Shown in pieces: positions 19,304 to 54,336 of a stretch of 64,000 bases of DNA. Below the pieces are notes generated by a model. The model searched no databases. It was not told where the DNA came from and saw nothing but the letters and a program-made list of their open reading frames with translations. Position 1 is the stretch's first letter; every line of letters starts with the position of its first letter. This stretch comes from Anaerolineae bacterium (GTDB taxonomy: Bacteria > Chloroflexota > Anaerolineae > Promineifilales > Promineifilaceae), in contig JAUIAP010000016.1 in the NCBI GenBank assembly GCA_030425205.1, forward strand, positions 55,956 through 119,955, written 5' to 3'. Both the position numbers and the translations under genes were made by a program.

Positions 19304-19375
19304 TTGCGGGGACAGGATTCGAACCTGCGACCTCCGGGTTATGAGCCCGACGAGCTGCCTCTGCTCTACCCCGCG
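19304..19375 (-). tRNA. Initiator tRNA-Met (anticodon CAT), CCA not encoded
   Basis: The minus strand reads CGCGGGGTAGAGCAGAGGCAGCTCGTCGGGCTCATAACCCGGAGGTCGCAGGTTCGAATCCTGTCCCCGCAA. It has a C1-A72 mismatch and three G-C pairs closing the anticodon stem (GGG/CCC). It is near-identical in pattern to E. coli tRNA-fMet. Confidence 0.92.
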
Positions 19376-28104: not shown

Positions 28105-29499
28105 ATGGCTCAAGAATTTGATGTAGTCGTGATTGGTGCAGGCCCCGGCGGTTATGTGGCGGCGATTCGTGCAGCACAGTTGGGTTTGAAAACGGCAGTT
28201 GTGGAAAAAAAGTATTGGGGCGGTGTTTGCCTCAACATCGGCTGCATTCCAAGTAAGGCGTTGCTTTACAATGCAGAGTTGGCGAACATCTTCTCACAAC
28301 GGGCGAAAGAGTTTGGATTTTCCTATGATAACTTTTCGGCCGATTACAGTGTTGCCTTCAAACGCAGCCGCCAAACGTCCAACCGTCTCGTAAAAGGGAT
28401 CGGTCTCTTGATGCGTAAAAACAAGATTACCACCTTTGACGGTACGGCAACGTTAACGGGTAAAAACAGCGTTCAAGTCAGCCTCAACGACGGTGGTGAA
28501 GAGACGCTCAATGCCAAAAATATCATCATCTCAACGGGCGCACGCCCACGTGAGTTGCCCGGCATGGAGACAGATGGCGAGCGCGTCATCAGCTATATCC
28601 CGGCCATTATGAGCGAAAGCAATCCAGGAAAAGCGGTCATCGTGGGCGGTGGCGTGATCGGTGTTGAGTTCAGCTACATGTGGGCAAACTACGGCACAGA
28701 TGTCACCATCGTTGAGATGATGGATCGCATTCTGCCGCTGGAAGAACCGGAAGTCAGCAAGCTGCTCGCCAAAGAGTACAAGAAGATGGGCGTCAATCTC
28801 GAACTCGGCACAGTCGTCGAGAACATCGACAAGAGCGGTGAGAAAATGACGGTCACGCTCAAGAATGGCAAGGTGATCGAAGATGTCGATAAGGTGCTCG
28901 TCGCCGTCAGCTTCACGCCAAATGTCGAGAACATCGGATTAGATGCGGCAGGTGTTGAACTCAACGAACGCGGCATGGTCGGTGTCAACGACATGATGCA
29001 GACAAACGTAGACAACATCTACGCCATAGGTGACGTGACGGGTAAGTTGATGTTGGCGCATGTCGCCAGCGCGATGGGTCTCTTGGCGGCCGAGCATATC
29101 GCTGGTCATGAGGTGCAACCACTCGACCTCGACATGATGCCACGCGCCATCTACTGCCAGCCGCAAGTCGCCTCCTTCGGCTACACCGAAGCACAGGCAA
29201 AAGAGAAAGGGTATGAGATCAACGTCGGTCAATTCCCCTTTATCGCCAACGGCAAGGCACTCGGCACGGGTGACAAAGATGGTTTCGCCAAAATCATTTC
29301 GGATGCCAAGTATGGCGAAATTTTGGGCGCACACATCATCGGTCATAATGTGACAGAGCTGTTGCCTGAGCTGACGCTGGCACGCATGAATGAGTTAACG
29401 GCCGAAGAGATAGCCCGCAACGTCCACGCCCATCCAACGATGAGCGAGGCCATTATGGAAGCCGCACATGCCGTTGAAGGCGAAGCGATCCACATTTAG
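28105..29499 (+). CDS. lpdA: Dihydrolipoyl dehydrogenase
   Basis: GGAG lies upstream of the ATG at 28105. '[23 protein letters not shown]' is present, along with the redox-active '[16 protein letters not shown]' and the C-terminal 'HAHPTMSEA'. Confidence 0.95.
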
Positions 29500-44888: not shown

Positions 44889-47800
44889 TTATTCTGGCAA
44901 TAGTCCAATCCAATAGTCGTTGCCACCCCAATAGTAGCTGCCCGACCAGTAGTAGCTGCCGTTCCAGTAGTAGCTGGCCAAGTCAAAGAGGCTGTTACCC
45001 GCCCAGTAGTAACTGCCACCCCAATAGTAGGTGCCACTCCAATAGTACGTCCCGCTCCAGTAGTAACTGCCTGACCAGTAGTAGGTTCCGCTCCAGTAGT
45101 AGGTTCCAGCCCAATAGTAGGTTCCGTTCCAGAGATAGCCGTCAGAATCGGCCGATAATGCACTCTCCGCCGTCACATGCACGATGGGTTCAATTCCGGC
45201 ATCTAGCACAACATTTGTACAGCGATACTGATTGCCTTCCTGATGTTTGGCAACGACCCACCTGTGATTGCGATAGGTTTGACGCGATACTGTCTGACCG
45301 GGATGAATCGTCGCTTTTAATTGCGGACTGCCACTATAGCTGAGCCAGAACAAATACATCGTTTCGTTGCTTGAATTCTCCACCGTCAGCGTTGTGGAAT
45401 TGAGACCGTCTAACGACGAGCGAATGTCGCTCAACTCTTCACAGCGGGGATCACGCCCATGGACACGATAGCCGCCTGCATCCTCGTCGTAGTAGGCAGG
45501 TCCCACATAACGACCACCAGCGTGCATGTTTTGCGAAACATTGCCGCTATAGCTTCCATAAATCGCATCATACGGCTTCAAACGCCCTGCACCTTGCTGG
45601 AAGATGCTAAACGTCGTCTGTTGACCCGAAGAGTCACGCACGAGCGGTTGTGCCGATGCTTGCAGGCGGAACTTCACCTGATCAGGCGTCAACTCTGGAT
45701 TTTCTTGCAACATGAGGGCGACCACGCCAGATGTAACGGCGGTGGCGGCCGATGTGCCAGACCCTAAATAGTAGCCGCTATTCGTTTTCCGCACGCGTCG
45801 GTTGTTGGCATAACGACTGTTTGATTGCTGTGGTTGGGCGATGTGTGCGCCGGGTGCAACGATGTCGGGTTTAACAAAACCCATCTCGGTTGGTCCGGCC
45901 GCGCTAAATGGCGGAATATAGTCATCACTCGCATAGCCCGGCGTATACGCATCGGTGTAGGCACCGACCGTCACGACCATTGGGTCGTTGCCCGGTGTCG
46001 TGATCGAACCCGCGTATGGGCCCGTGTTGCCCGCCGCAACAATCACGACAACACCAGCATCCCACAGCAGTTCAACCGCCGTGTTAATTGGATTCTCCCA
46101 ATACGGCCCCGTCACAGGCCCCATCAGTGACAAGTTGACGACGCGGATATTCAACGCTTCATGGTGATCGTAGATGACCTCAAGACCACGTAGTACGTCT
46201 GCGTAGGTCGATTTTCCATCAGGGTCTAGCACGCGGATATCGTAGATGTTTGCGTCTGGTGCAACGCTGACAAAACGTCCTCTATGCCTATCGTTGCCGG
46301 CAATGATGCTGGCCATAAATGAGCCATGTCCATTTTCGTCGATGTCGGTATCGGGTAGTGCATTGTAGCGCATCACTACATTATTTTTTAGAACGGCTGG
46401 ATTGATTCCCGTATCCACAACGGCAACGCCAATGCCTGCACCACTAAGGCCTGCCTGATGGAGAGCGGGAATGCCGATTTCATCTAAATAGTCAGTTGGA
46501 GAGACCTCGGACGCTGTCGTCTTTTGTGTTTCATAAGGGGCAAGATAGCTGCCGGAGATGACTTCACGACGACCGTTGGGGATTTGCCACGCGACAGAGA
46601 GATGGTCGGCTCCCGTATGTTCTTTTTGAATCGCCTCAATATAGTAACGTTGCCCAGCTTCGAGATAAATTTTGCGCGACTTCTGTGATGCAAGCCAATT
46701 CCATTCGTGATAGTAGGTCCACTCGGTCACTGAGGCGATTTGTTGCGCTTCGTCGGGTCGCTCTGTTGCGCTGAGATAGAGGCGTGCATAGTTGTTGCCA
46801 GCCAACCAGAAGGTATATTCGCCCGTCACGGGTGGGTATAGATAGCCGCGTACGCGAGTCCCATAATGATCATCCATGTTGACGGGGGTTTCAAATTCGT
46901 TGATGTGACTCGTTCCCGTTGGATTGTTTGGATAGTTAGGATGGTTTAGTAGTGCGTTCAGGCTATCGCCGTTGACGTTGAGCCAGTATTCGCGCAGGAT
47001 TGTCCCACGACTATCATCAGGGCGAGAGCGGAAGAGAACTTCGTCTTGAATCGGCCGTTTTGAGAAGTTCGCGCTTTGATATGAGACGACGAGTCTATCG
47101 ACATAGCCATAGCCACCAAAATACTCGACTGTAATTGGATGATACCCTTGCTTGAGGAAGATGGTGCCGCTGCGTTCGCGTAGACCATGCAGGCCGTCAT
47201 TATCGACGACGAGTTGCCCATTGATGTGTACTTGGCTGCCGCCATTTGATTCGCTATAAAATGTGTAGGTTTCATCACGGTCAATGTAAATAAAACCGGT
47301 GTAACGGAAACCAAAGTAATCAATGCGTCCACGCACAGATAGATCGATGTTGTCGACCGTACCATGAAATGTCGGTACTAGATTTTCAAAATTAGGCAAA
47401 CGCGACCACCAGCCTTGATAGTACTGATAGAAAAGACCGTTGTCGCTGCCGCGCGCTGTGCCACCGTTCTGCTGGTTGAGCGTAATGTTGTCGAGATAGA
47501 AGGTCGGTTGGGGAGATTCGGTCAAACTTTGCCAAATGATGCCGTGAATGGGTGTATCGGCCGAAATAATCTCATCAAGCGCAATTTCATACTGCATCCA
47601 CGCGCCCTTTTCGGCCGTGACGGTCGTCTGCGACTTGCCCCAGTCGATTCCATCGGCCGTCACTAGCTGCAACCAGAGCGTTTGCCCGCCGGATTCGCCA
47701 CCATGCAACCAAAAACTCAGCGTGTCAACTTCATCGACCGTGAATGGCTTGTTCGTTTTGAGATAGAACGCCGAATGTGCCGCATCAAGTGAGACGGCAA

Positions 47801-48413
47801 CGCTACTCAGATTATCGGTTTGTGTTGGTTCTGGGTTTGCAGCGGTCGTTTCGGCCGATCCCCATGGCACGATCTCCCAATCAGTTCCTAGCCGATCTGC
47901 ATACAACATCTGCGATGACGTGCTGGCTAGTTCGACTGGTGCAACCTCGCGGCCACCTTGCGACTGCTGCGGCGTGCTCTCATGCATCAGCGTCGGCAAA
48001 AATACGGTGTGGAGGGGGGAATCCTCAGTTGGATAACGCTCCGTGTGGGTGATAATCGGGGTTGCTGAGATCGCGTTGTTGAGCGTGTGGAGTGGGGCAT
48101 CGAGCGCCACGTTTTCAATCCCTTCGACCGCCTCTAACGCCGTCATTTGGAGCGGCGGGAGCGACACCACATAGCTGTCGATAAATGGTACTGGCTCAAC
48201 AATCGAACCACCAACAGCACTCACCGCTTCTGCAACACCTTCAAACCCCTCTGCCGCTCGCACAACAACGCGCACTGCTGGCAGATCGGCCGATTGATCG
48301 GCTTTCACTTGGGCGGGGGTTGCCCAAACACAAAAAAGGCCAATACACACCGACCAAAAAATCAGACGCATGGGGGAGTTCCCATTGGAAAATTTACCAA
48401 TACCTGCAAACAT
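44889..48413 (-). CDS. Secreted multidomain subtilisin-like (S8) protease with CBM-like and two PA14 domains, a VHL-beta-like domain and a YYW-repeat tail
   Basis: The signal peptide is 'MRLIFWSVCIGLFCVWATPAQVKA', giving an alternative start at 48371. PA14-like segments are 'FYQYYQGWW..YFGFRYTGFIYIDRDETYTFYSESNGGSQVHINGQLVVDNDG' and 'LREYWLNV..GTRVRGYLYPPVTGEYTFWLAGNNYARLYLS'. The S8 triad motifs are 'VAVVDTGINP', 'ENGHGSFMASIIAG' and 'GSGTSAATAVTSGVVALM'. Confidence 0.85.
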   Translation of the reverse strand: MFAGIGKFSNGNSPMRLIFWSVCIGLFCVWATPAQVKADQSADLPAVRVVVRAAEGFEGVAEAVSAVGGSIVEPVPFIDSYVVSLPPLQMTALEAVEGIENVALDAPLHTLNNAISATPIITHTERYPTEDSPLHTVFLPTLMHESTPQQSQGGREVAPVELASTSSQMLYADRLGTDWEIVPWGSAETTAANPEPTQTDNLSSVAVSLDAAHSAFYLKTNKPFTVDEVDTLSFWLHGGESGGQTLWLQLVTADGIDWGKSQTTVTAEKGAWMQYEIALDEIISADTPIHGIIWQSLTESPQPTFYLDNITLNQQNGGTARGSDNGLFYQYYQGWWSRLPNFENLVPTFHGTVDNIDLSVRGRIDYFGFRYTGFIYIDRDETYTFYSESNGGSQVHINGQLVVDNDGLHGLRERSGTIFLKQGYHPITVEYFGGYGYVDRLVVSYQSANFSKRPIQDEVLFRSRPDDSRGTILREYWLNVNGDSLNALLNHPNYPNNPTGTSHINEFETPVNMDDHYGTRVRGYLYPPVTGEYTFWLAGNNYARLYLSATERPDEAQQIASVTEWTYYHEWNWLASQKSRKIYLEAGQRYYIEAIQKEHTGADHLSVAWQIPNGRREVISGSYLAPYETQKTTASEVSPTDYLDEIGIPALHQAGLSGAGIGVAVVDTGINPAVLKNNVVMRYNALPDTDIDENGHGSFMASIIAGNDRHRGRFVSVAPDANIYDIRVLDPDGKSTYADVLRGLEVIYDHHEALNIRVVNLSLMGPVTGPYWENPINTAVELLWDAGVVVIVAAGNTGPYAGSITTPGNDPMVVTVGAYTDAYTPGYASDDYIPPFSAAGPTEMGFVKPDIVAPGAHIAQPQQSNSRYANNRRVRKTNSGYYLGSGTSAATAVTSGVVALMLQENPELTPDQVKFRLQASAQPLVRDSSGQQTTFSIFQQGAGRLKPYDAIYGSYSGNVSQNMHAGGRYVGPAYYDEDAGGYRVHGRDPRCEELSDIRSSLDGLNSTTLTVENSSNETMYLFWLSYSGSPQLKATIHPGQTVSRQTYRNHRWVVAKHQEGNQYRCTNVVLDAGIEPIVHVTAESALSADSDGYLWNGTYYWAGTYYWSGTYYWSGSYYWSGTYYWSGTYYWGGSYYWAGNSLFDLASYYWNGSYYWSGSYYWGGNDYWIGLLPE
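44907..45140 (-). repeat. Coding tandem repeat, 18-nt period, encoding (G/S)(T/S)YYW(S/A/G) hexads
   Basis: Seven consecutive hexads (GTYYWA GTYYWS GTYYWS GSYYWS GTYYWS GTYYWG GSYYWA) are followed by the spacer GNSLFDLA. Next come SYYWN GSYYWS GSYYWG GNDYWI. On the plus strand the DNA reads as repeated CCAGTAGTAGSTNCC units. Confidence 0.9.
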
Positions 48414-48525
48414 CTATCACTCCTACGCTCTGATAGCGCATGAAATCTGTTCTGTTGTTTGGGGTGTAATTTGAAGCGTTCACACCACCGATTACTGTAA
48501 CGAATGCTAGTGTAGTACTCTGATC

Positions 48526-49194
48526 TTACAAGGTGACTTGCAAACTGTAGAGATGTGCCTGTTTGTGTTTGCCAATTCTATGCACAAGCGCAAGTTTATG
48601 CAGGCAGTACATCATCTGCTGGGCGCGGCGGCGTGGGATGTTGGCATGATCGGCGAGATCAGCGGTCGTGAAGGGGGTTGGGAGCGTTTTTGGGAGGAGC
48701 AAGAGGAGATCGGCCGAATTCTCAATGCGCACCCAATCTTTAACTTTTAAGAGGCGACGCGCCGTGATCATCCAGCCGCGTCGCCGTCCATATTTGCGCT
48801 TGGGGTCATATTCGCGCTCAATTTCATCTTGCACTAGGAGCAGTTCGATCGAAAGATTGGGGTCATCGAGCGACGTGGGCAGCGCGACCAGTTGTTCAAA
48901 AATATCGTGCAGCGTGCCACGTTTGGGGGATTTGCGCCGCTTGCCCTGTTTGATGATCCAACGTTCGGCCGAAATTGGATAGACAATCGTGACGGCATGG
49001 GTGGGGAGAAAGTGGGAGAGTTTGGCCCTTAATCGGCCGAAGCTGCCTGTTTGAACTTCGATCAAGCGTTCCCCACGCACAATGTCAATCACAAACCGAT
49101 CGATTGGCACCTCAAACTGATCGCCGGGCTGCGCCAGCCACGACTTTACCTGTGCATGTAATTCCCGTTCGTTCAATGTGCCAATGTCGGACAT
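48526..49194 (-). CDS. Hypothetical protein, PD-(D/E)xK nuclease-like N-terminus with C-terminal wHTH-like region
   Basis: 'ERELHAQVKSWL..GDQFEVPIDRFVIDIVRGERLIEVQTGSF' has a D...E-x-Q pattern of the restriction-endonuclease fold. The C-terminus 'FTTADLADHANIPRRRAQQMMYCLHKLALVHRIGK' resembles an HTH. The assignment rests on motifs only. Confidence 0.45.
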   Translation of the reverse strand: MSDIGTLNERELHAQVKSWLAQPGDQFEVPIDRFVIDIVRGERLIEVQTGSFGRLRAKLSHFLPTHAVTIVYPISAERWIIKQGKRRKSPKRGTLHDIFEQLVALPTSLDDPNLSIELLLVQDEIEREYDPKRKYGRRRGWMITARRLLKVKDWVRIENSADLLLLLPKTLPTPFTTADLADHANIPRRRAQQMMYCLHKLALVHRIGKHKQAHLYSLQVTL

Positions 49195-49202
49195 GCCCTA
49201 AG

Positions 49203-50521
49203 GATCGCGAATTAAATAACTGTCGTAAATGATAGTTGCGGCATGGCACGATAATTCCACTTGGGCAGATAGGCATCAAAAATAATCGGCATCGTTTCCC
49301 TGAATGTGTCTGAAACCTTGCGACCAGTCTGGTAGAGTTTGTCGAAAACGGCGACAGAGACAGAAAGCCCAGTAGCCGTTTTGGTGCGTGCAATCAGGTC
49401 ACGAACGATGGCAACAGATTTGAAGACAACTCCTTGACAGGCAAGGGTGACATGGGGGAATAAGCGATGCTCAATCGGATTGTATTTGGAACAGTAAGGC
49501 GGATAATGGGCAATACGAATCTCGATGCCGATGTCATTGACCAATTTCTGTAATTCTTCCTTGAAAATATAATAGTGTGAACTGTTGCTGCCGCCACCAT
49601 CGCAAAGCAGCAGAATAGAGGTTGCATTGGGATAGTGATGTTGACCCGCACTCATCCACCAGTGCCGAATACTATCGCAGGCAAATTGACTGGTATCTTT
49701 ACTGGTTCCGATATGGATATACCCGTGATTGAGGGCTAAATCATAGAGCGCATGAGGAATCACAATGCCATCTGCGCTACTGGTAAAATCATGGTCATTG
49801 GTCTGGATAACCTGTTGGGTATACAGGCGACCGTCACGGTAAAAATTGCCCAGATACTCCTTCTTTTTCGTGTCCATACTCACGACAGGGTTGCCACTTT
49901 CCATGTACACTTTGCGTAGTTGTTCAATGTTCTTGAACTGTTCATCCCGATTAGCCACCTGACCCATTGTCACACTCTTCTGTGCTTTACGACGCCGAAA
50001 ACGATGTTGATTCAGTAACTTTTTGACCGTTGTCACACTCGTTTTTAATTGGTGTTCTTCCAGCATCATCTCGCTGATCTCTCTTGGTTTTAGATGTGTC
50101 CAGCGTATTCCCTCATCCATCGGGTCTCCCGCCGTATACGTCTCAATCACCTTAAGAAATGCTGCATTCAACCGTTCTTTTTTTGTCAAATGGTTTGCGC
50201 CCACCCCCTGGTCGGCGAATTCGTCCTGCTGGGATTTCATTCTTATTGCTCGCCAATTCAGCTTGCCCTCGTTGAATGGTTCTCGCTGAGCAACCCAACA
50301 CACTTTCCATATACAACTGTCCGCCATACCCCACCTTTTTGGCTTCTAGTGCTGCATAATGCCGCTTATCTCGCTCCGAGAGCGTTTCAAAAAACTTGCG
50401 CATTTGTTGTTCTATTTCTACGTCGTATTTTTTCATTTTTAGCTCCATTCTGTCAAAATATGATTGTAGTCCTTTCTCTTTCCCTTTGGCTACAATTACG
50501 ACATCTATTTAATTCGCGATC
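49203..50521 (-). mobile_element. ISAzo13-family insertion sequence (1319 bp) with 16-bp perfect terminal inverted repeats and a 5-bp target duplication
   Basis: The IRs are GATCGCGAATTAAATA (49203-49218) and TATTTAATTCGCGATC (50506-50521). Direct repeats CTAAG flank them at 49198-49202 and 50522-50526. The element contains ISAzo13-type transposase coding sequence. It has no TCGGCCGA copies. Confidence 0.85.
49212..50448 (-). pseudogene. ISAzo13-family DDE transposase split into two frames at an A7 run
   Basis: The N-terminal ORF (50448-50152) reads 'LSERDKRHYAALEAKKVGYGG..PAGRIRRPGGGRKPFDKK'. The C-terminal ORF (50327-49212) reads 'KKERLNAAFLKVIETYTAGDPMDEGIRWT..MDTKKKEYLGNF..LLLCDGGGSNSS..YCSKYNPIEHRLF'. 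The frames join at GACAAAAAAAGAA (T-run 50178-50184 on the plus strand). Removing one A restores a single ORF. Confidence 0.8.
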
Positions 50522-50640
50522 CTAAGTGTAACGAAAATAAGCGGCGTGCATGACCCAGACAGCACAAACTTACGCGAAATATTGATGGAGATGGTATGAT
50601 CAACTCTCTAAGAACTGTTACGCGATACACGAGGAAAAAG

Positions 50641-52641
50641 ATGCCCAACCGCCTTGCACAAGAAAGCAGCCCCTACCTACTACAACACGCCAACAACCCC
50701 GTCAACTGGTTCCCGTGGGGCGAAGATGCCCTTGCCCTTGCAAAATCAGAAGATAAACCGATCCTGATCAGCGTCGGCTATGCGGCGTGCCACTGGTGTC
50801 ACGTCATGGAACATGAGTCATTTGAAGATGAGCGTATCGCCGCGTTCATGAACGAAAACTTCGTCAACATCAAAGTTGATCGCGAAGAGCGTCCCGATCT
50901 CGATCAAATTTACATGAGCGCAGTACAGGCGATGACGGGTCAGGGGGGCTGGCCGATGAACGTCTTTTTGACCCCGGCTGGCGAACCATTCTATGGTGGC
51001 ACCTACTACCCGCCGACCCCACGCTACGGCATGGCGAGTTGGGGGCAAGTGCTGTCGGGGGTCGCCAATGCGTGGCAGACGCGCCGCGCTGATCTCACCA
51101 AGCAGGCGGGTGAAATGGCGGGACACATTCAGCAGGAATTTGCGCTCAAGAATCAGAACTATGTGCTTGACCCGCTGCTTTTCGAGCGGGCGGAAAAACA
51201 GTTCGACACCCAGTTTGACCGTTCACGCGGTGGCTTTGGTGGCGCACCTAAATTCCCGCCGTCGATGTCGCTTGAATTTCTGCTACGCATCGACTCGCTA
51301 GAGATGGTGACAACGACGTTCGATCAGATGGCATGGGGCGGCATCTATGACCATGTCGGCGGCGGCTTTGCGCGTTATTCGGTCGATGCCAACTGGCTGG
51401 TTCCCCATTTTGAGAAGATGCTCTACGACAATGCCCTGCTCGCCCGTGTCTACTTACACGCCTATCAGGTGACGGGGAATGCCCACTATCGCCAAGTGGT
51501 CGAGGAGACGCTCGACTGGACGTTACGCGAGATGACAGAGGATGGCGGTGGGTTTTACAGCAGTCTCGATGCGGATAGCGAGGGGGTCGAAGGCAAGTTC
51601 TATGTCTGGTCGCAAGCTGAGATAGAACAGATTCTCGGCGACGACGCACCACTGTTCATGGCACGCTATGACGTGACCGCACGCGGCAATTGGGAAGGCC
51701 ACAACATTCTCAACACCACCCACAGCAACTTAGCTGACGTCGCGGCACAATTTGATCTATCAATTGCGGCGGCTCAAAAGACGCTGGCCGCAGCACGACA
51801 AAAGCTGTTTGCCGTGCGAGCGCAACGGATTTGGCCGGGTCTCGATGACAAAATATTGACGGCGTGGAATGGGCTGATGTTGGCAGCGTTTGCGGAGGCG
51901 GGGCGCGTCTTAAAACGTGACGACTATTTGGCAGCAGCGGTCAAAAACGCCGATTTTCTTCATGCCACGATGCGAACTGATGCGGGTCGGTTATTGCGAA
52001 CATGGAAGGCGGGCAACGCGGCGAAATATAACGCCTATTTGGAAGATTACGCCTACCTAGCGGATGGGCTGTTGGCACTTTATCAGGCGACGTTCGACGT
52101 GCGCTGGTTTGAATGGGCGCAAGAGCTGACTGACATGATGATGACGCACTTTCAAGATAGTGAAAATGGGGGTTTTTATGACACGTCAGACGATCATGAA
52201 ACGTTGCTCTATCGACCGAAATCCCTACAAGACAATGCCACCCCCTCCGCCAACGCGATGGCGTGTAAGGTTTTGATTTTGATGAATCTTTTGACAGGTG
52301 ACGGCGCACTGGTCGATTATGCTGAAGAGATGGTCGCCGCGCTCTATCCCGCGCTTGCGCAATACCCAAACGGGTTCGCCCACTGGTTAGGGTGCGCGTG
52401 GTTACTGTTGAGCGAGCCAAAACAGGTGGCGCTGGTTGGCACCGATGTGAGCGAGTTGGCGGATGTGGTCTGGGGAGAATTTCGGCCGAATCTTGTCATC
52501 GCCGCTGGCACAGGTGACACACCACCCCTCTTGGCAAATCGCACACAAATCGGGGATCGGCCGACGGCCTACGTCTGCCAAAATTTCGTTTGTCAACTAC
52601 CCGTTACAGACCCAGAGAAGCTACGCGAACAGTTAAGTTAA
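50641..52641 (+). CDS. Thioredoxin-domain protein of the DUF255/YyaL (SPATA20-like) family
   Basis: '[52 protein letters not shown]' is present, followed by a six-hairpin glycosidase-like C-terminal domain. The start is taken at MPNRLAQE (50641). Confidence 0.9.
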
Positions 52642-52675
52642 CGTGGGGTGTGGCGTTCTTTTAGAAAAGGGGTTG

Positions 52676-52785
52676 GTGTCTTTAGATTTTCGCCACTAAG
52701 GTGCGTGGTGCGTGTCCAGAATACGTACCACGCACCACGCACCACGAATGATAATGTGGCTAAAACTTCATTGATACGAACAAAA
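52676..52785. repeat. Heptad-periodic hairpin repeat, family A copy 3
   Basis: The core is ggtgcgtggtgcgtg (52700-52714) paired with cgtaccacgcaccacgcaccacg (52724-52746). The outer arm GTGTCTTTAGATTTTCGCCACTAAGG is related to copies 2 and 4. It lies between convergent genes. Confidence 0.85.
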
Positions 52786-52794
52786 AACGAATTA

Positions 52795-54336
52795 TCAATA
52801 CGTCGGCAACCCAAGATCAACCATCTCTTGCCCTGCCAAAAACGCCTTTAACGCCGCCTTTGTCGCATCCCGATCGTCCCAATCATATTCTGTTGTGCCA
52901 AAACACATCGACTGTTCATGCCCTTTGCCACAGACGAGGACGAGGTCGTGTGCGCCCGCGCAGGTGAGCGCGTGATAGATGGCGCGACCGCGATCAGGGA
53001 TGCGCCAAAATGTCACCCCTTCTTTGCCGCCGTGTTTGCGACACCCTTCGGCCATCATCCCAAGAATATCATCCAGTGGCTCTTGTCGCGGGTCTTCGGC
53101 AGTAAGCACCGTCAGGTTGGCGTGCTGTTCAGAGATTTCGGCCATCATACGCCGCTTTTCGACATCGCGCCGACCTGCACTACCAAACACGGTGATAATT
53201 TTGCCAGTCGTCATACTGCGGGCTGCTTCGATGGCGCGTTTGAGCGCGTTCGGCGTGTGGGCAAAATCAACGATGACGGGGAACGGCTGCCCCATCACGA
53301 TCCGTTCCATGCGACCACTAATCAGCGTCACATTTTCGATCCCGCGTTTGATATGTTTATTTTCGATTTCGAGTGAGTGGGCAGCGGCGGCGGCGGCGAG
53401 CATGTTGTAGATGTTAAATCGGCCGACCAGCGGGGTTGCAATTTCGATGCCGAGCGGTTCTATGTTGAAGGTGGTTTTTTCGGCCGAAAAGCGCACCCCA
53501 TTTGCCCATATATCCCAGCGGTTGTCCATCCCATAGCTAATTTGCAGCGGCTTCTCAAATTGAGAGAGATATTCGGCCGAAACATCGTCCCCATTGATCA
53601 CGGTCGCCCGTTCCGCCAGTTCAAACAACCGCCCCTTTGCGTGTAGATAGTTCTCCCATGAGCCATGATAATCTAAATGCTCGTGGGTGACATTTGTCAT
53701 CACGGCGACATCGTAAAATGCAGTGTCGGCGCGATACTCCGCCAAGCCATAGCTGGTCGATTCCAGAACACAGTGTGTACAGCCATCATCGACCATTTTG
53801 CGCAGGAAAGCCTGCGTCTCAGGCGCTTGCGGCGTGCTGACGTGTAGCCCTGTCGGCTCCTCTCGATTGCCGATCACCGCCTTGATGGTGCTGATCATGC
53901 CCGTTTTGTGTCCAGCCGCGATCAGAATTTCATAGACAAGATTGGTCACCGACGTTTTGCCATCTGTCCCCGTTACACCCACAACGGTCAAATGTTGGCC
54001 GGGAAAATCGTGCCATGCGGCCGCCAGCCATGTCTCGACCATTGCCGTATCTGGCACAGTCCAGACACGGGCATGGTTCTCTGGAACGCCCGCCTGCCCC
54101 GCCTGCGCGATGACCAACGCCGCACCTTTTTCCAATGCCTGCAAGACAAAGGGGTGTCCGTTGCTGTAGGGGCGCACGCGCGCAATGAAGCAGTCGCCCA
54201 CTTCAACAAGCCGACTGTCTTCAACGATGCGATTGAATGTAATGGGGGAACCCGTGTGCGGGGGTGGCAGCACATAGTCGTGCTGAACTGCAAAGGCGTG
54301 CCATGTTGCGAGAAGATCGGTGATCGTTTTGCTCAT
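52795..54336 (-). CDS. murE: UDP-N-acetylmuramoyl-L-alanyl-D-glutamate ligase adding the third residue (MurE)
   Basis: 'VVGVTGTDGKTSVTNL', 'VLESTSYGL' and 'LTAEDPRQE' are present. The Mur ligase three-domain pattern is seen at about 510 aa. Confidence 0.9.
   Translation of the reverse strand: MSKTITDLLATWHAFAVQHDYVLPPPHTGSPITFNRIVEDSRLVEVGDCFIARVRPYSNGHPFVLQALEKGAALVIAQAGQAGVPENHARVWTVPDTAMVETWLAAAWHDFPGQHLTVVGVTGTDGKTSVTNLVYEILIAAGHKTGMISTIKAVIGNREEPTGLHVSTPQAPETQAFLRKMVDDGCTHCVLESTSYGLAEYRADTAFYDVAVMTNVTHEHLDYHGSWENYLHAKGRLFELAERATVINGDDVSAEYLSQFEKPLQISYGMDNRWDIWANGVRFSAEKTTFNIEPLGIEIATPLVGRFNIYNMLAAAAAAHSLEIENKHIKRGIENVTLISGRMERIVMGQPFPVIVDFAHTPNALKRAIEAARSMTTGKIITVFGSAGRRDVEKRRMMAEISEQHANLTVLTAEDPRQEPLDDILGMMAEGCRKHGGKEGVTFWRIPDRGRAIYHALTCAGAHDLVLVCGKGHEQSMCFGTTEYDWDDRDATKAALKAFLAGQEMVDLGLPTY

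What the first reader, a model, noticed from the sequence alone, without database searches (positions are those of the whole stretch)
49198..50526. ISAzo13-family IS inserted 4-8 bp upstream of a start codon, with its transposase split at an A7 tract
The element has clear boundaries: 16-bp perfect IRs (GATCGCGAATTAAATA) and a 5-bp CTAAG duplication. The left duplication ends 3 nt from the ATG (49194, minus strand) of the PD-(D/E)xK-like gene, so the insertion displaced that gene's native promoter. The perfect IRs and intact duplication point to a recent event. The transposase reading frame changes at GAC-AAA-AAA-A|GA, where 6 A residues would give one ORF (..GGGRKPFDKKERLNAAF..). This could be an inactivating indel, a sequencing error in a homopolymer, or expression control by transcriptional slippage or +1 recoding. 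A/T-run slippage is known for other IS families.
Basis: partly seen in the sequence, partly recalled or inferred. Interest (0 to 1): 0.5.

Follow-up and report, generated by a model that had tools for sequence, protein, structure and literature searches.

The report
ISAzo13 insertion sequence with poly-A recoding site
This is an intact jumping gene of the little-studied ISAzo13 family whose transposase is deliberately written in two reading frames joined at a run of A's, a known way of throttling transposase production that had not been noted for this family, and it has landed 7 bases in front of a neighbouring gene, cutting it off from its own promoter.

Summary
An ISAzo13-family IS with perfect terminal repeats lies at window 49202-50522, directly upstream of the ATG at 49194. 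Its transposase changes frame at an A7 run (50178-50184).

- **Boundaries:** the "5-bp CTAAG duplication" is really a 3-bp TAA target duplication plus the element's terminal G and C. Fifteen copies in a closed genome show GG...CC ends with 3-bp TWA/ATA duplications. Four IS-free orthologous loci confirm a precise insertion.
- **Not an error:** A7 appears in five assemblies.
- **Not a private lesion:** none of the 27 distinct relatives at 60% identity or more is a single ORF, and 25 are split at an A7-A9 run. dN/dS is 0.05-0.25 in both halves.
- **Phase:** most relatives have orfB in the -1 frame. This copy is one A shorter than its A8 sister, so orfB is in +1 and needs A6 or A9 in the mRNA.
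- **Other +1 cases:** a +1 layout is stably conserved in another subclade, and +1 elements occur at several insertion sites.

Best reading is programmed slippage on the A run, probably transcriptional, with this copy a low-output phase variant. The main rival is a copy disabled by a one-base deletion. This is a new member of a known kind and of moderate interest.

The parts
49202..50522 (-). Complete ISAzo13-family insertion sequence, 1321 bp, with the transposase genes on the minus strand
   Evidence: 17/17 terminal inverted repeats. GG...CC ends by analogy with 15 Desulfonema magnum copies and relatives. Orthologous loci without the IS are colinear after removal of 1324 bp.
49202..49218 (.). 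Terminal inverted repeat at the transposase 3' end (GGATCGCGAATTAAATA). It contains the orfB stop codon TAA (49212-49214, minus strand).
50506..50522 (.). Terminal inverted repeat at the transposase 5' end, the perfect reverse complement of 49202-49218
49199..49201 (.). Target-site duplication TAA, copy next to the DUF8091 gene.
   Evidence: 3-bp TWA/ATA duplications in 14 of 15 copies in a closed genome. Empty-site alignment.
50523..50525 (.). Target-site duplication TAA, distal copy.
50152..50436 (-). orfA, the N-terminal helix-turn-helix part of the transposase. 94 aa from the ATG at 50436, with GGAG 6 nt upstream; an alternative ATG at 50448 gives 98 aa. It ends ...GGGRKPFDKKRTVECSIS*.
   Evidence: ORF list. 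NF033519 model positions 2-74. Relatives start MKKYD. The exact 94-aa product is called in three other assemblies.
50178..50184 (-). A7 run (T7 on the + strand) where the frame changes; the proposed slippage site. orfB is +1 relative to orfA. A6 or A9 in the mRNA joins the frames.
   Evidence: The homologous A7-A9 run is present in all 13 distinct elements of the subclade.
49212..50177 (-). orfB, the DDE catalytic part: 321 codons plus stop, counted from the first codon after the run
   Evidence: PF07592 positions 3-308 of 308. NF033519 positions 54-387. All family-invariant residues are present, including DTKKKE, CDGGGSN and NPIEHR.
50463..50492 (-). Candidate transposase promoter, TAGCCA-18 nt-TACAAT (consensus match only)
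   Evidence: The number of such sites does not exceed the shuffled expectation, so this is weak.
48526..49194 (-). Downstream gene in the same orientation: DUF8091 protein, 222 aa. Its ATG lies 7 nt beyond the IS end and 17 nt beyond the orfB stop.
   Evidence: Orthologues of 222 aa with 100% coverage and 83-87% identity, PF26351. Model pLDDT 91; SfsA, YaeQ and BglII-like fold plus a winged helix.
50523..50537 (-). Displaced native upstream motif of the DUF8091 gene: TTTTCGTTACACTTA on the minus strand. TACACT (50525-50530) would lie at -12..-7 from the A of the ATG in the uninterrupted locus.
   Evidence: Conserved in all four IS-free orthologous loci at identical spacing from the ATG. Its reading as a -10 box of a leaderless mRNA is inference.
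50622..52641 (+). Divergent neighbour on the other side of the IS: DUF255 / thioredoxin DsbH-like protein. The ORF list gives a start at 50596. The 143-aa gene call on locus L129 translates from MPNRLAQ, i.e. from 50622.

Best explanation
**What it is.** This is an intact ISAzo13-family insertion sequence. Its transposase is encoded in two frames by design. OrfA is the DNA-binding N-terminal part and OrfB is the DDE catalytic part. They meet at a poly-A run in the linker just after the conserved RIRRPGGGRK motif.

**What is shown.**
- The two-frame layout with an A7-A9 run is the ancestral state of this subclade and has been kept by selection.
- The usual phase puts orfB in the -1 frame.
- This copy, like two other independent lineages, has shifted to the +1 phase. 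It has one A fewer than its A8 sister.

**What is inferred.**
- Unslipped mRNA yields only OrfA, a likely regulator.
- A minority of transcripts in which RNA polymerase slipped on the A run encode the full-length OrfAB transposase. This is programmed transcriptional realignment, as shown experimentally for IS1447 and argued for IS630-type elements.
- For this A7/+1 copy the productive transcripts would carry A6 (...DKKERL...) or A9 (...DKKKERL...). The A9 product is colinear with the family.
- Output should therefore be lower than from the A8 form, making this a throttled but live copy.

**Effect on the neighbour.** The IS inserted into a CTAAG target and duplicated TAA, 7 nt upstream of the ATG of a DUF8091 gene. 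This separated the gene from a conserved upstream motif, which is probably the -10 box of a leaderless transcript. The transposase gene now runs into the DUF8091 gene in the same direction with no terminator. Any remaining expression probably comes from read-through.
For: **The split is conserved.**
- The 18 closest protein clusters (73-98% identity) are all orfB-only products of 302-342 aa. Full-length ORFs first appear at about 61% identity.
- Among 83 distinct elements recovered from genomes and metagenomes, 27 are at least 60% identical to this transposase. Of these, 25 are split at an A or G run, 1 is split without a run, 1 is partial and none is a single ORF.
- All 13 distinct elements of the window's own subclade carry A7-A9 at the homologous DKK site.

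**Both halves are under selection.**
- dN/dS is 0.05-0.25 for orfA and 0.05-0.09 for orfB wherever dS could be estimated.
- The window protein keeps every family-invariant residue.

**Split elements move.** Near-identical copies sit in different flanks: L038/L120 (A9, +1 phase), L122/L123 and L001/L002. L118, the window's A7 element from another sample, is a contig that ends at the IS ends and has a different flanking base.

**Both phases occur in one family.**
- Each +1 element is sister to a -1 element.
- A separate subclade (L024, L110, L111; A8, +1) keeps the +1 phase across 65-87% amino-acid identity with pN well below pS.
- Mixed +1/-1 clusters with poly-A are the published signature of transcriptional realignment in transposases (PMC3711429).
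- No IS is known to use +1 ribosomal frameshifting (PMC5009743).
- In IS1447, cDNA of an A9 run showed A10 in 8/52 and A8 in 9/52 clones. The +1 phase is served by the shortened transcripts, and A7 is sufficient while A6 is not (PMC6211511).

**No RNA stimulator.** No conserved or unusually stable RNA structure lies around the run.

**Family colinearity.** The +2A fusion aligns without a gap to single-ORF relatives. It scores 464.0 against 458.2 bits for the -1A fusion on NF033519.

**A natural fused variant.** L112 (T-A9-C) encodes exactly the product predicted for +1A slippage of its T-A8-C relatives.

**A7 is real.** It is seen in five assemblies.

**Insertion and promoter displacement.**
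Against: - No transcript or protein data exist. Slippage is inferred from comparative sequence only.
- Most -1 elements carry the run in the phase of a canonical A_AAA_AAG or A_AAA_AAN heptamer. Ribosomal -1 frameshifting could therefore be the clade's mechanism, and this +1 copy could not use it.
- Within the window's own subclade the three +1 variants are all terminal branches with -1 sisters. Short-lived defective derivatives would show the same pattern.
- The window copy and L118 differ by one synonymous base. Selection after the A8-to-A7 change therefore cannot be tested.
- A7 is at the lower limit for slippage in the one system tested, and no stimulatory hairpin lies next to the run.
- The evidence for a second insertion site of the A7 element rests on 2-4 flanking bases and on contig ends.
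- Trans-mobilisation by an A8 copy would also explain multiple sites.
Confidence: 0.6

Rival explanations
1. The clade uses classical -1 ribosomal frameshifting on A_AAA_AAG, as IS3 and IS1 elements do. The window copy lost one A from the slippery run, which put orfB out of reach. It would then be a freshly disabled, non-autonomous copy that can move only if an intact copy supplies transposase.
For: - The sister element L119, and L089 and L055, read GAT/GAC AAA AAA AAG with orfB in -1. That is a canonical heptamer in the correct phase.
- In the window a -1 slip gives KKKNG and then a stop.
- The 0-frame stop lies 2-3 codons after the run in all -1 elements.
- All three +1 variants in this subclade are tips with -1 sisters.
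Against: - A +1 layout at A8 is kept under purifying selection across 65-87% identity in another ISAzo13 subclade. The family can therefore decode +1 phases.
- +1 elements occur at more than one insertion site.
- No downstream stimulatory structure was found, and no suitably placed Shine-Dalgarno-like element was seen by eye.
- All runs are 7 A or longer, not the A6N that suffices for ribosomal slippage.
- L040 and L001 have the run out of heptamer phase (T_AAA_AAA) yet are intact.
- The copy has no other lesion and has perfect inverted repeats.
Confidence: 0.27
2. OrfA and OrfB are made as two separate proteins and no frame change is needed. OrfB would start at an internal codon such as the ATG at 50327, which the public annotation uses to call a 371-aa product.
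For: - In the window the orfB frame is open for 194 nt upstream of the orfA stop and contains an ATG.
- A 371-aa product is on record from NCBI.
Against: - In the -1 relatives the orfB frame is closed by stop codons immediately upstream of the run. The overlap is only 13-31 nt and contains no start codon in the overlaps printed. Independent initiation is therefore impossible in most of the clade.
- Single-ORF relatives show that the two parts form one colinear protein.
- The first 30 residues or so of the 371-aa product do not match the family model.
Confidence: 0.05
3. The splits are ordinary decay. Homopolymer runs that encode the lysine-rich linker are mutation hotspots, and all these elements are independent pseudogenes.
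For: - Run length does vary at the DNA level (A7, A8, A9, and the fused A9 in L112).
- A few loci carry extra lesions, for example the G7 shift in L034 and a split without a run in L022.
Against: - dN/dS is 0.05-0.25 in both halves at saturated dS.
- None of 27 distinct close relatives is a single ORF.
- Identical split elements occur at different sites.
- Single-ORF relatives have no long A run at this place (longest run 2-6 in 15 of 17). The run is therefore not a coding necessity.
Confidence: 0.05
4. The A7 is a homopolymer sequencing or assembly error, and the real element has A6 or A8.
For: None beyond the general error-proneness of homopolymers.
Against: The identical A7 appears in the source genome and in independent Logan assemblies of four runs: ERR3428545, ERR3428544, SRR24442556 and SRR24874946.
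Confidence: 0.02

Closest known systems
IS1447 subgroup of the IS3 family (Clostridium thermocellum): +1-phase transposase made by transcriptional slippage on a poly-A run (PMC6211511)
   Same: - orfA and orfB overlap with orfB in the +1 frame.
- An A run sits at the junction.
- The full-length transposase needs an mRNA with a different number of A's.
- A7 was experimentally sufficient in IS1447.
   Different: - It belongs to a different IS family (IS3, against ISAzo13/PF07592).
- IS1447 has A9 and an adjacent predicted stem-loop. Here the run is A7 with no significant structure.
- In IS1447 the +1 phase is the subgroup norm. Here it is a minority phase derived from a -1 ancestor.
- Nothing has been tested experimentally here.
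IS630-family and IS5 (DDE_Tnp_1)-family transposases with poly-A programmed transcriptional realignment (Baranov 2005 from memory; Antonov 2013, PMC3711429)
   Same: - Poly-A sits at the frame junction.
- +1 and -1 phases coexist within one family (IS630: 495 in -1 against 185 in +1; here 22 against 10 distinct elements).
- The split lies between the helix-turn-helix and DDE parts.
- The window transposase also has a weak hit to the IS630 model (E about 1e-12).
   Different: - ISAzo13 was not among the named transposase clusters that I could read in that paper, though its figure and supplement were not checked.
- No paper in the searched library links ISAzo13 or PF07592 with frameshifting.
- Here at least four different linker positions carry the run in different subclades.
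IS3/IS911 and IS1 -1 programmed ribosomal frameshifting on A_AAA_AAG or A_AAA_AAC
   Same: - The orfA-orfB layout is the same, and OrfA is a likely regulator.
- The -1 relatives of this element carry exactly such heptamers in phase.
   Different: - In the window orfB is in +1, so a -1 slip terminates after 3 codons.
- No downstream pseudoknot or hairpin is conserved.
Typical single-ORF ISAzo13 elements (e.g. the ~20 copies in Desulfonema magnum CP061800)
   Same: - The transposase family is the same (56% identity).
- The ends are GG...CC.
- The duplication is 3 bp (TWA/ATA) in a YTWAR target.
- The size is about 1.3-1.4 kb.
   Different: They have one uninterrupted ORF and no long A run in the linker.

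Membership tests
ISAzo13 family of insertion sequences | DDE transposase matching the family models (Pfam PF07592 DDE_Tnp_ISAZ013; NCBIfam NF033519 transpos_ISAzo13) | tested here: met
   PF07592 E 1.4e-104, positions 3-308 of 308. NF033519 458-464 bits against a cut-off of 200, positions 3-387 of 387. All invariant residues are kept.
ISAzo13 family of insertion sequences | Short terminal inverted repeats with family-typical ends (G-rich 'GG/Ga' termini), and a length of about 1.25-2.2 kb (range recalled from ISfinder, not checked here) | tested here: met
   17/17 inverted repeats GGATCGCGAATTAAATA and a 1321-bp element. The same GG...CC ends and (T)TAAATAA core are seen in relatives and in the D. 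magnum copies.
ISAzo13 family of insertion sequences | Short target-site duplication | tested here: met
   TAA on both sides. The 3-bp rule was derived from 14 of 15 D. magnum copies. Empty sites confirm the insertion. Short metagenome contigs were uninformative: left and right flanks disagreed in about half, probably through chimeric assembly across a repeat.
ISAzo13 family of insertion sequences | Single transposase ORF, as I recall the family description (not checked here) | tested here: not met
   There are two frames joined at A7. This is a property of a whole subclade. It is a variant of the layout rather than grounds for exclusion from the family.
Programmed transcriptional realignment (slippage) in IS transposases | Homopolymeric A/T run of at least 7 exactly at the orfA/orfB junction | tested here: met
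   A7 at 50178-50184. A7-A9 in all 13 distinct elements of the subclade.
Programmed transcriptional realignment (slippage) in IS transposases | Run and split conserved among diverged relatives, with both ORFs under purifying selection | tested here: met
Programmed transcriptional realignment (slippage) in IS transposases | Frameshift direction not conserved among orthologues (+1 and -1 phases both present) | tested here: met
   22 distinct elements in -1 and 10 in +1, with sister pairs of opposite phase. The criterion comes from PMC3711429.
Programmed transcriptional realignment (slippage) in IS transposases | Heterogeneous transcripts with extra or missing A's, and an OrfAB fusion protein | not testable with these tools
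   This needs cDNA against genomic DNA amplicon sequencing and protein detection.
-1 programmed ribosomal frameshifting (IS3/IS1 type) | orfB in the -1 frame, reached from an X_XXY_YYZ heptamer in the 0 frame | tested here: not met
   In the window orfB is +1, and the -1 frame stops after AAG AAC GGT TGA. The feature is met in the sister L119 and most relatives.
-1 programmed ribosomal frameshifting (IS3/IS1 type) | Stimulatory downstream RNA structure or a suitably placed upstream Shine-Dalgarno-like element | tested here: not met
   The consensus fold has no structure downstream of the run, with a covariation term of -0.44. The single-sequence fold has z = -0.61. By eye, the nearest GGAGG/GGGGG lies 20 nt or more upstream and encodes the conserved GGG motif.

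The most novel reading that the evidence does not exclude
In the ISAzo13 family the poly-A run acts as a heritable expression dial. Runs have arisen at four or more different positions of the linker between the helix-turn-helix and DDE parts. Replication slippage moves single elements between -1, +1 and fused phases. All three states would be decodable through RNA-polymerase slippage, at different outputs. On this reading the window's A7/+1 copy is an active, low-output state that makes transposase from transcripts with two extra A's or one fewer. Because the IS replaced the leaderless promoter of the adjacent DUF8091 nuclease-like gene, that gene's expression would now depend on transposase-gene transcription.
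Probability: 0.35. Interest if true: 0.5.

Novelty: new member of a known kind. Interest (0 to 1): 0.35.

Why it matters
- **Annotation.** Automated annotation treats such elements as broken genes or as a stand-alone 'orfB'. The public record calls a 371-aa product here, and every close relative in the protein collection is an orfB-only fragment. Recognising a conserved poly-A recoding site would rescue a large subclade of ISAzo13 from pseudogene status.
- **A new family for a known mechanism.** It would add one of the least-studied IS families to those that throttle transposase by slippage.
- **A natural test series.** The sister elements form a series (A7 in +1, A8 in -1, A9 fused) for testing how run length and phase set transposase output.
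- **Local effect.** The insertion is a clean example of an IS cutting a gene off from a probable leaderless promoter and replacing it with read-through from the transposase gene.
- **Limits.** The recoding mechanism itself is textbook, and nothing here overturns current understanding.

Tried and rejected
- **Exact look-up of the 98-aa OrfA** (start at 50448) found nothing. The 94-aa form from the second ATG is the one on record.
- **The 5-bp duplication tested on short metagenome contigs.** All flanks fit CTWAG. Left and right agreed perfectly in only 3 of 11 as 5-mers and 5 of 11 as 3-mers, which is about chance. I put this down to chimeric assembly across a multicopy repeat and used the closed D. 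magnum genome instead.
- **RNA stimulators.** RNAalifold on 11 relatives and a single-sequence fold found nothing beyond weak hairpins inside the GGG-coding stretch.
- **Outward promoter in the IS end.** The consensus scan found none near 49202-49260. By eye there is only a weak TTTACG-17 nt-GATCCT.
- **Which transcript is used (A6 or A9)?** The A9 product is colinear with the family for the window. The same test gives opposite answers for L024 and L110, so linker length does not decide the question.
- **OrfA searched against 1.84 billion representatives.** Most of the top 150 hits are 71-250 aa. This fits widespread splitting, but fragments from contig ends cannot be separated, so I did not count it as evidence.
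- **Literature.** No paper in the library links ISAzo13, PF07592 or 'Rhodopirellula transposase' with frameshifting.
- **The DUF8091 neighbour.** It had no hit in the local Pfam or NCBIfam copies or by PDB sequence search. Only the fold comparison was informative.
- **Rfam** found nothing in or near the IS.
Full report
**1. What is in the sequence**

On the plus strand the window reads ...CATGCC-CTAAG-GATCGCGAATTAAATA... at 49192-49218, and ...TATTTAATTCGCGATC-CTAAG-TGTAACG... at 50506-50533.

- The 16-mer GATCGCGAATTAAATA occurs only at these two places, in inverted orientation and without mismatch. The perfect inverted repeat extends one base outward, to 17/17 as GGATCGCGAATTAAATA. It continues inward at lower identity (34 nt at 88% when the flanking pentamers are included).
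- Two minus-strand ORFs lie between the repeats. The first runs 50448-50152 (98 aa). The second frame is open down to 49212.
- The second frame is displaced by +1 relative to the first. The two frames overlap at GAC-AAA-AAA-A|GA-ACG, which is the A7 run at 50178-50184.
- Deleting one A gives a 411-aa protein. It matches Pfam PF07592 (DDE_Tnp_ISAZ013) over the full model at E 1.4e-104. It also matches the NCBIfam equivalog NF033519 (ISAzo13 family transposase) at 458 bits against a cut-off of 200.

**2. True boundaries and the target duplication**

Flanks of 13 related elements all fit ...C-T-W-A-G | GA...TC | C-T-W-A-G.... In short metagenome contigs, however, the left and right pentamers agree no more often than chance. 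Short-read contigs spanning a multicopy 1.3-kb repeat can join flanks from different copies. I therefore used the closed genome of Desulfonema magnum, which carries about 20 near-identical copies of a 56%-identical ISAzo13 element.

- In the 15 copies I aligned, the element always begins GGAATG... and ends ...GATTCC.
- It is flanked by an identical 3-bp repeat (TTA, TAA or ATA) in 14 of 15 cases.
- The next base out is a pyrimidine on the left and a purine on the right. The target is thus YTWAR with a 3-bp duplication.

Applied to the window:
- The IS is 49202-50522 (1321 bp).
- The duplication is TAA (49199-49201 and 50523-50525).
- The target was C-TAA-G.
- The apparent 5-bp repeat arises because the terminal G and C of the IS recreate the outer bases of the target.

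Both models remove the same 1324 bp. The empty-site test below supports the insertion but cannot choose between them. The 3-bp rule rests on the D. magnum copies.

**3. The insertion is real, precise, and absent from relatives**

- The 222-aa protein encoded at 48526-49194 has full-length orthologues of exactly 222 aa at 83-87% identity. All are annotated with PF26351 (DUF8091). This supports the ATG at 49194 as the start.
- Four contigs carrying such orthologues (L125 from GCA_964389925.1, and L126-L128) share the window's gene order: a DsbH-like thioredoxin gene, the DUF8091 gene and a ~1175-aa protein gene. None has an IS.
- The window with 1324 bp removed aligns to them without a gap through the junction:
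  - window: TTTTCGTTACAC-TTA-GGGC-ATG
  - L125/L126: TTTTCGCTACAC-TTC-TGGG-ATG
  - L127/L128: TTTTCGTTACAC-TTA-CAAC-ATG

**4. A7 is not an error**

- A 23.9-kb Logan contig from ERR3428545 is 100% identical to window 45212-53586.
- Contigs from ERR3428544 and SRR24442556 are 100% identical to 49798-51069. They carry the same junction and the same A7.
- A 1325-bp contig from SRR24874946 (L118) is the IS with 4 and 2 flanking bases. It has one synonymous mismatch, no gap, and A7.
- L118 ends at both IS termini, and its flanking triplet differs from the window's (TAA against TTA in transposase orientation). This suggests a second context for the same A7 element, but the evidence is thin.

**5. 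The split is a property of a clade, not of this copy**

- The protein search with the fused sequence returned orfB-only products of 302-342 aa for all 18 clusters at 73-98% identity. Full-length proteins of 403-410 aa appear only from 61% identity downward.
- I fetched DNA for 124 loci from genomes, metagenomes and look-ups and classified them by tblastn frames.
- At 97% amino-acid identity these collapse to 83 distinct elements:

| Class | All 83 | At least 60% identical to the window (27) |
|---|---|---|
| Single ORF | 44 | 0 |
| Split at an A or G run, orfB in -1 | 22 | 19 |
| Split at an A or G run, orfB in +1 | 10 | 6 |
| Split without a run | 2 | 1 |
| Partial | 5 | 1 |

- In the window's own subclade all 13 distinct elements carry A7-A9 at the homologous place, right after GGGRKP(F/Y)D.
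- Single-ORF relatives encode the same linker without long A runs. The longest run is 2-6 in 15 of 17. The run is therefore not forced by the protein sequence.

**6. Selection and mobility**

- For nine complete elements of the subclade, pairwise Nei-Gojobori dN/dS is 0.05-0.25 upstream of the run and 0.05-0.09 downstream, wherever dS could be estimated. dS exceeds 1 in most pairs.
- The window protein keeps every residue that is invariant among 13 single-ORF relatives, including DTKKKE, CDGGGSN and NPIEHR.
- Three pairs of near-identical elements (over 99.7%) sit in unrelated flanks: L038/L120, L122/L123 and L001/L002. Split elements have therefore transposed recently.

**7. Phase: where this copy departs from the norm**

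- Ten of the 13 distinct elements of the subclade have orfB in -1. Adding one A to the run joins the frames and gives a 29-residue GGRK...GDP segment.
- Three have orfB in +1: the window with L118 (A7), L121 (A7), and L038 with L120 (A9).
- On a neighbour-joining tree each +1 element is sister to a -1 element: window-L119 (A8), L120-L089 (A8) and L121-L124 (A8). The -1 phase is therefore ancestral, and the +1 phase arose three times.
- The window differs from L119 and L089 by exactly one A: GAC-A7-GAACGG against GAT-A8-GAATGG.
- Two mRNA variants would join the window's frames.
  - A6 gives ...DKKERLNAAFL... .
  - A9 gives ...DKKKERLNAAFL.... This product is colinear with the +1A product of the sisters and with single-ORF relatives (no gap). 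It scores 464.0 against 458.2 bits on NF033519.
- A -1 slip in the window reads KKKNG and then stops.

**8. Is a +1 phase usable in this family?**

- L024, L110 and L111 (65-87% identical to one another) all have A8 directly after GGGRK with orfB in +1. pN is 0.06-0.20 against pS of 0.56-0.85 downstream.
- L093 and L099 share another +1 site.
- Other subclades carry the run elsewhere. One has T-A8-C before RIRxPGGGRK in -1, with an overlap window of only 13 nt, in five elements of 83-93% identity. Another has C-A7-C at about residue 165 in -1. Others have A7G4 within RKKGGRK.
- One member of the T-A8-C group, L112, has T-A9-C and a single ORF reading AKKKRIRQPGGGRK. That is exactly the product predicted for one extra A.

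Run length therefore drifts at the DNA level between -1, +1 and fused states, and -1 is much the commonest.

**9. Mechanism**

Published work provides the frame of reference.
- Antonov et al. found that transposase families with confirmed transcriptional realignment do not keep one shift direction. IS630 has 495 genes in -1 and 185 in +1, all at poly-A. They used this, together with the A-rich sites, to infer realignment (PMC3711429).
- The Atkins et al. review states that no IS using +1 ribosomal frameshifting has been identified, and that the +1 cases studied are transcriptional (PMC5009743).
- For IS1447, cDNA clones of an A9 run had A10 in 8 of 52 and A8 in 9 of 52. The +1-phase transposase came from the shortened transcripts. 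A7 was sufficient and A6 was not (PMC6211511).

Findings here that bear on mechanism:
- Both phases are present.
- All runs are 7 or longer.
- No conserved or unusually stable structure flanks the run. The RNAalifold covariation term is -0.44 with nothing downstream, and the single-sequence fold has z = -0.61.

I therefore favour transcriptional slippage. OrfA alone would come from unslipped mRNA, and OrfAB from a minority of slipped mRNA.

I cannot exclude ribosomal -1 frameshifting for the -1 elements, because most carry A_AAA_AAG or A_AAA_AAN in phase. If that is the clade's only mechanism, the window copy is a freshly disabled derivative. A -2 ribosomal slip on A7 would give the same product as A9 mRNA and is a minor possibility.

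**10. Consequence for the neighbouring gene**

- In the uninterrupted locus, TACACT lies at -12 to -7 from the A of the ATG. It is conserved in all four IS-free orthologous loci, while the 6 nt between it and the ATG vary and contain no consistent Shine-Dalgarno sequence. This is the geometry of a -10 box for a leaderless mRNA. That reading is inference.
- The IS now separates the motif from the gene. The bases at -12 to -7 are now GATCCT.
- The consensus scan finds no outward promoter in the IS end and no terminator between orfB and the gene.
- orfB stops inside the terminal repeat, 17 nt before the ATG, on the same strand. Read-through transcription from the transposase gene is thus the simplest source of remaining expression.
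- The scan's candidate transposase promoter is TAGCCA-18 nt-TACAAT at 50492-50463. GGAG lies 6 nt before the second ATG (50436), which matches the MKKYD start of relatives and the 94-aa gene call in other assemblies.
- The DUF8091 gene is intact.

**11. Verdict**

- The finding is real and well described.
- The recoding reading is the one the comparative evidence supports, for the clade with high confidence and for this particular A7 copy with moderate confidence.
- The phenomenon is of a known kind: poly-A slippage in IS transposases. I found no report of it for ISAzo13 in the searchable literature.
- Interest is moderate.

Noticed in passing
window 48526-49194 (-): The gene downstream of the IS encodes a conserved DUF8091 protein. 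Its confident model (pLDDT 91) has an N-terminal domain resembling SfsA, YaeQ and BglII (a PD-(D/E)xK-type fold) and a C-terminal winged helix. D37, E46 and Q48 are invariant in 27 homologues. From memory, this D...ExQ spacing matches the BglII active site.
   Followed up: partly
window 50523-50537 (-); L125-L128 upstream of the DUF8091 gene: TTTTCGYTACACTT is conserved immediately upstream of the start codon in all orthologous loci. TACACT lies at -12..-7 from the A of the ATG, and no Shine-Dalgarno sequence is present. This suggests a leaderless transcript.
   Followed up: partly
L005-L025 (Desulfonema magnum CP061800): About 20 near-identical single-ORF ISAzo13 copies occur in one closed genome. 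All have GG...CC ends and 3-bp TWA/ATA duplications in a YTWAR target. L014 has mismatched flanks (TTA/TAA), as expected after recombination between copies. L007 and L012 each carry two inverted copies a few hundred bp apart.
   Followed up: partly
L112 781-789: This member of the T-A8-C (-1) subclade has T-A9-C and a single uninterrupted transposase ORF. It is a natural 'fused' variant at the DNA level.
   Followed up: partly
L028, L029, L030, L116 (around the RRRKAQKK motif, ~residue 165): A different ISAzo13 subclade is split at a C-A7-C run inside the catalytic half, far from the linker site, again with orfB in -1 and low pN/pS. L030 lies on a contig binned as a Bathyarchaeota archaeon.
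   Followed up: partly
L129 and L130, contig ends at window 49798: Two independent assemblies of the same insertion both break at the same internal position of the IS. This may mark a point where several diverged IS copies in those samples stop being identical.
   Followed up: no
window 28205-28211: The only other A/T run of 7 or more in the window lies in frame (GAA AAA AAG, E-K-K) in a dihydrolipoyl-dehydrogenase-like gene. A7 is therefore tolerated in an ordinary gene of this organism.
   Followed up: yes
window 44889-48413 (-): A 1174-aa ORF, conserved next to the DUF8091 gene in relatives, ends in a tandem array of GTYYWSG-like heptads.
   Followed up: no
L034 3673-3679: This element has a second frame change at a G7 run around residue 227, in addition to the poly-A site. 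It is probably a genuine lesion or an assembly error.
   Followed up: no
window 19304-19375 (-): A single tRNA gene is the only Rfam match in the window.
   Followed up: no
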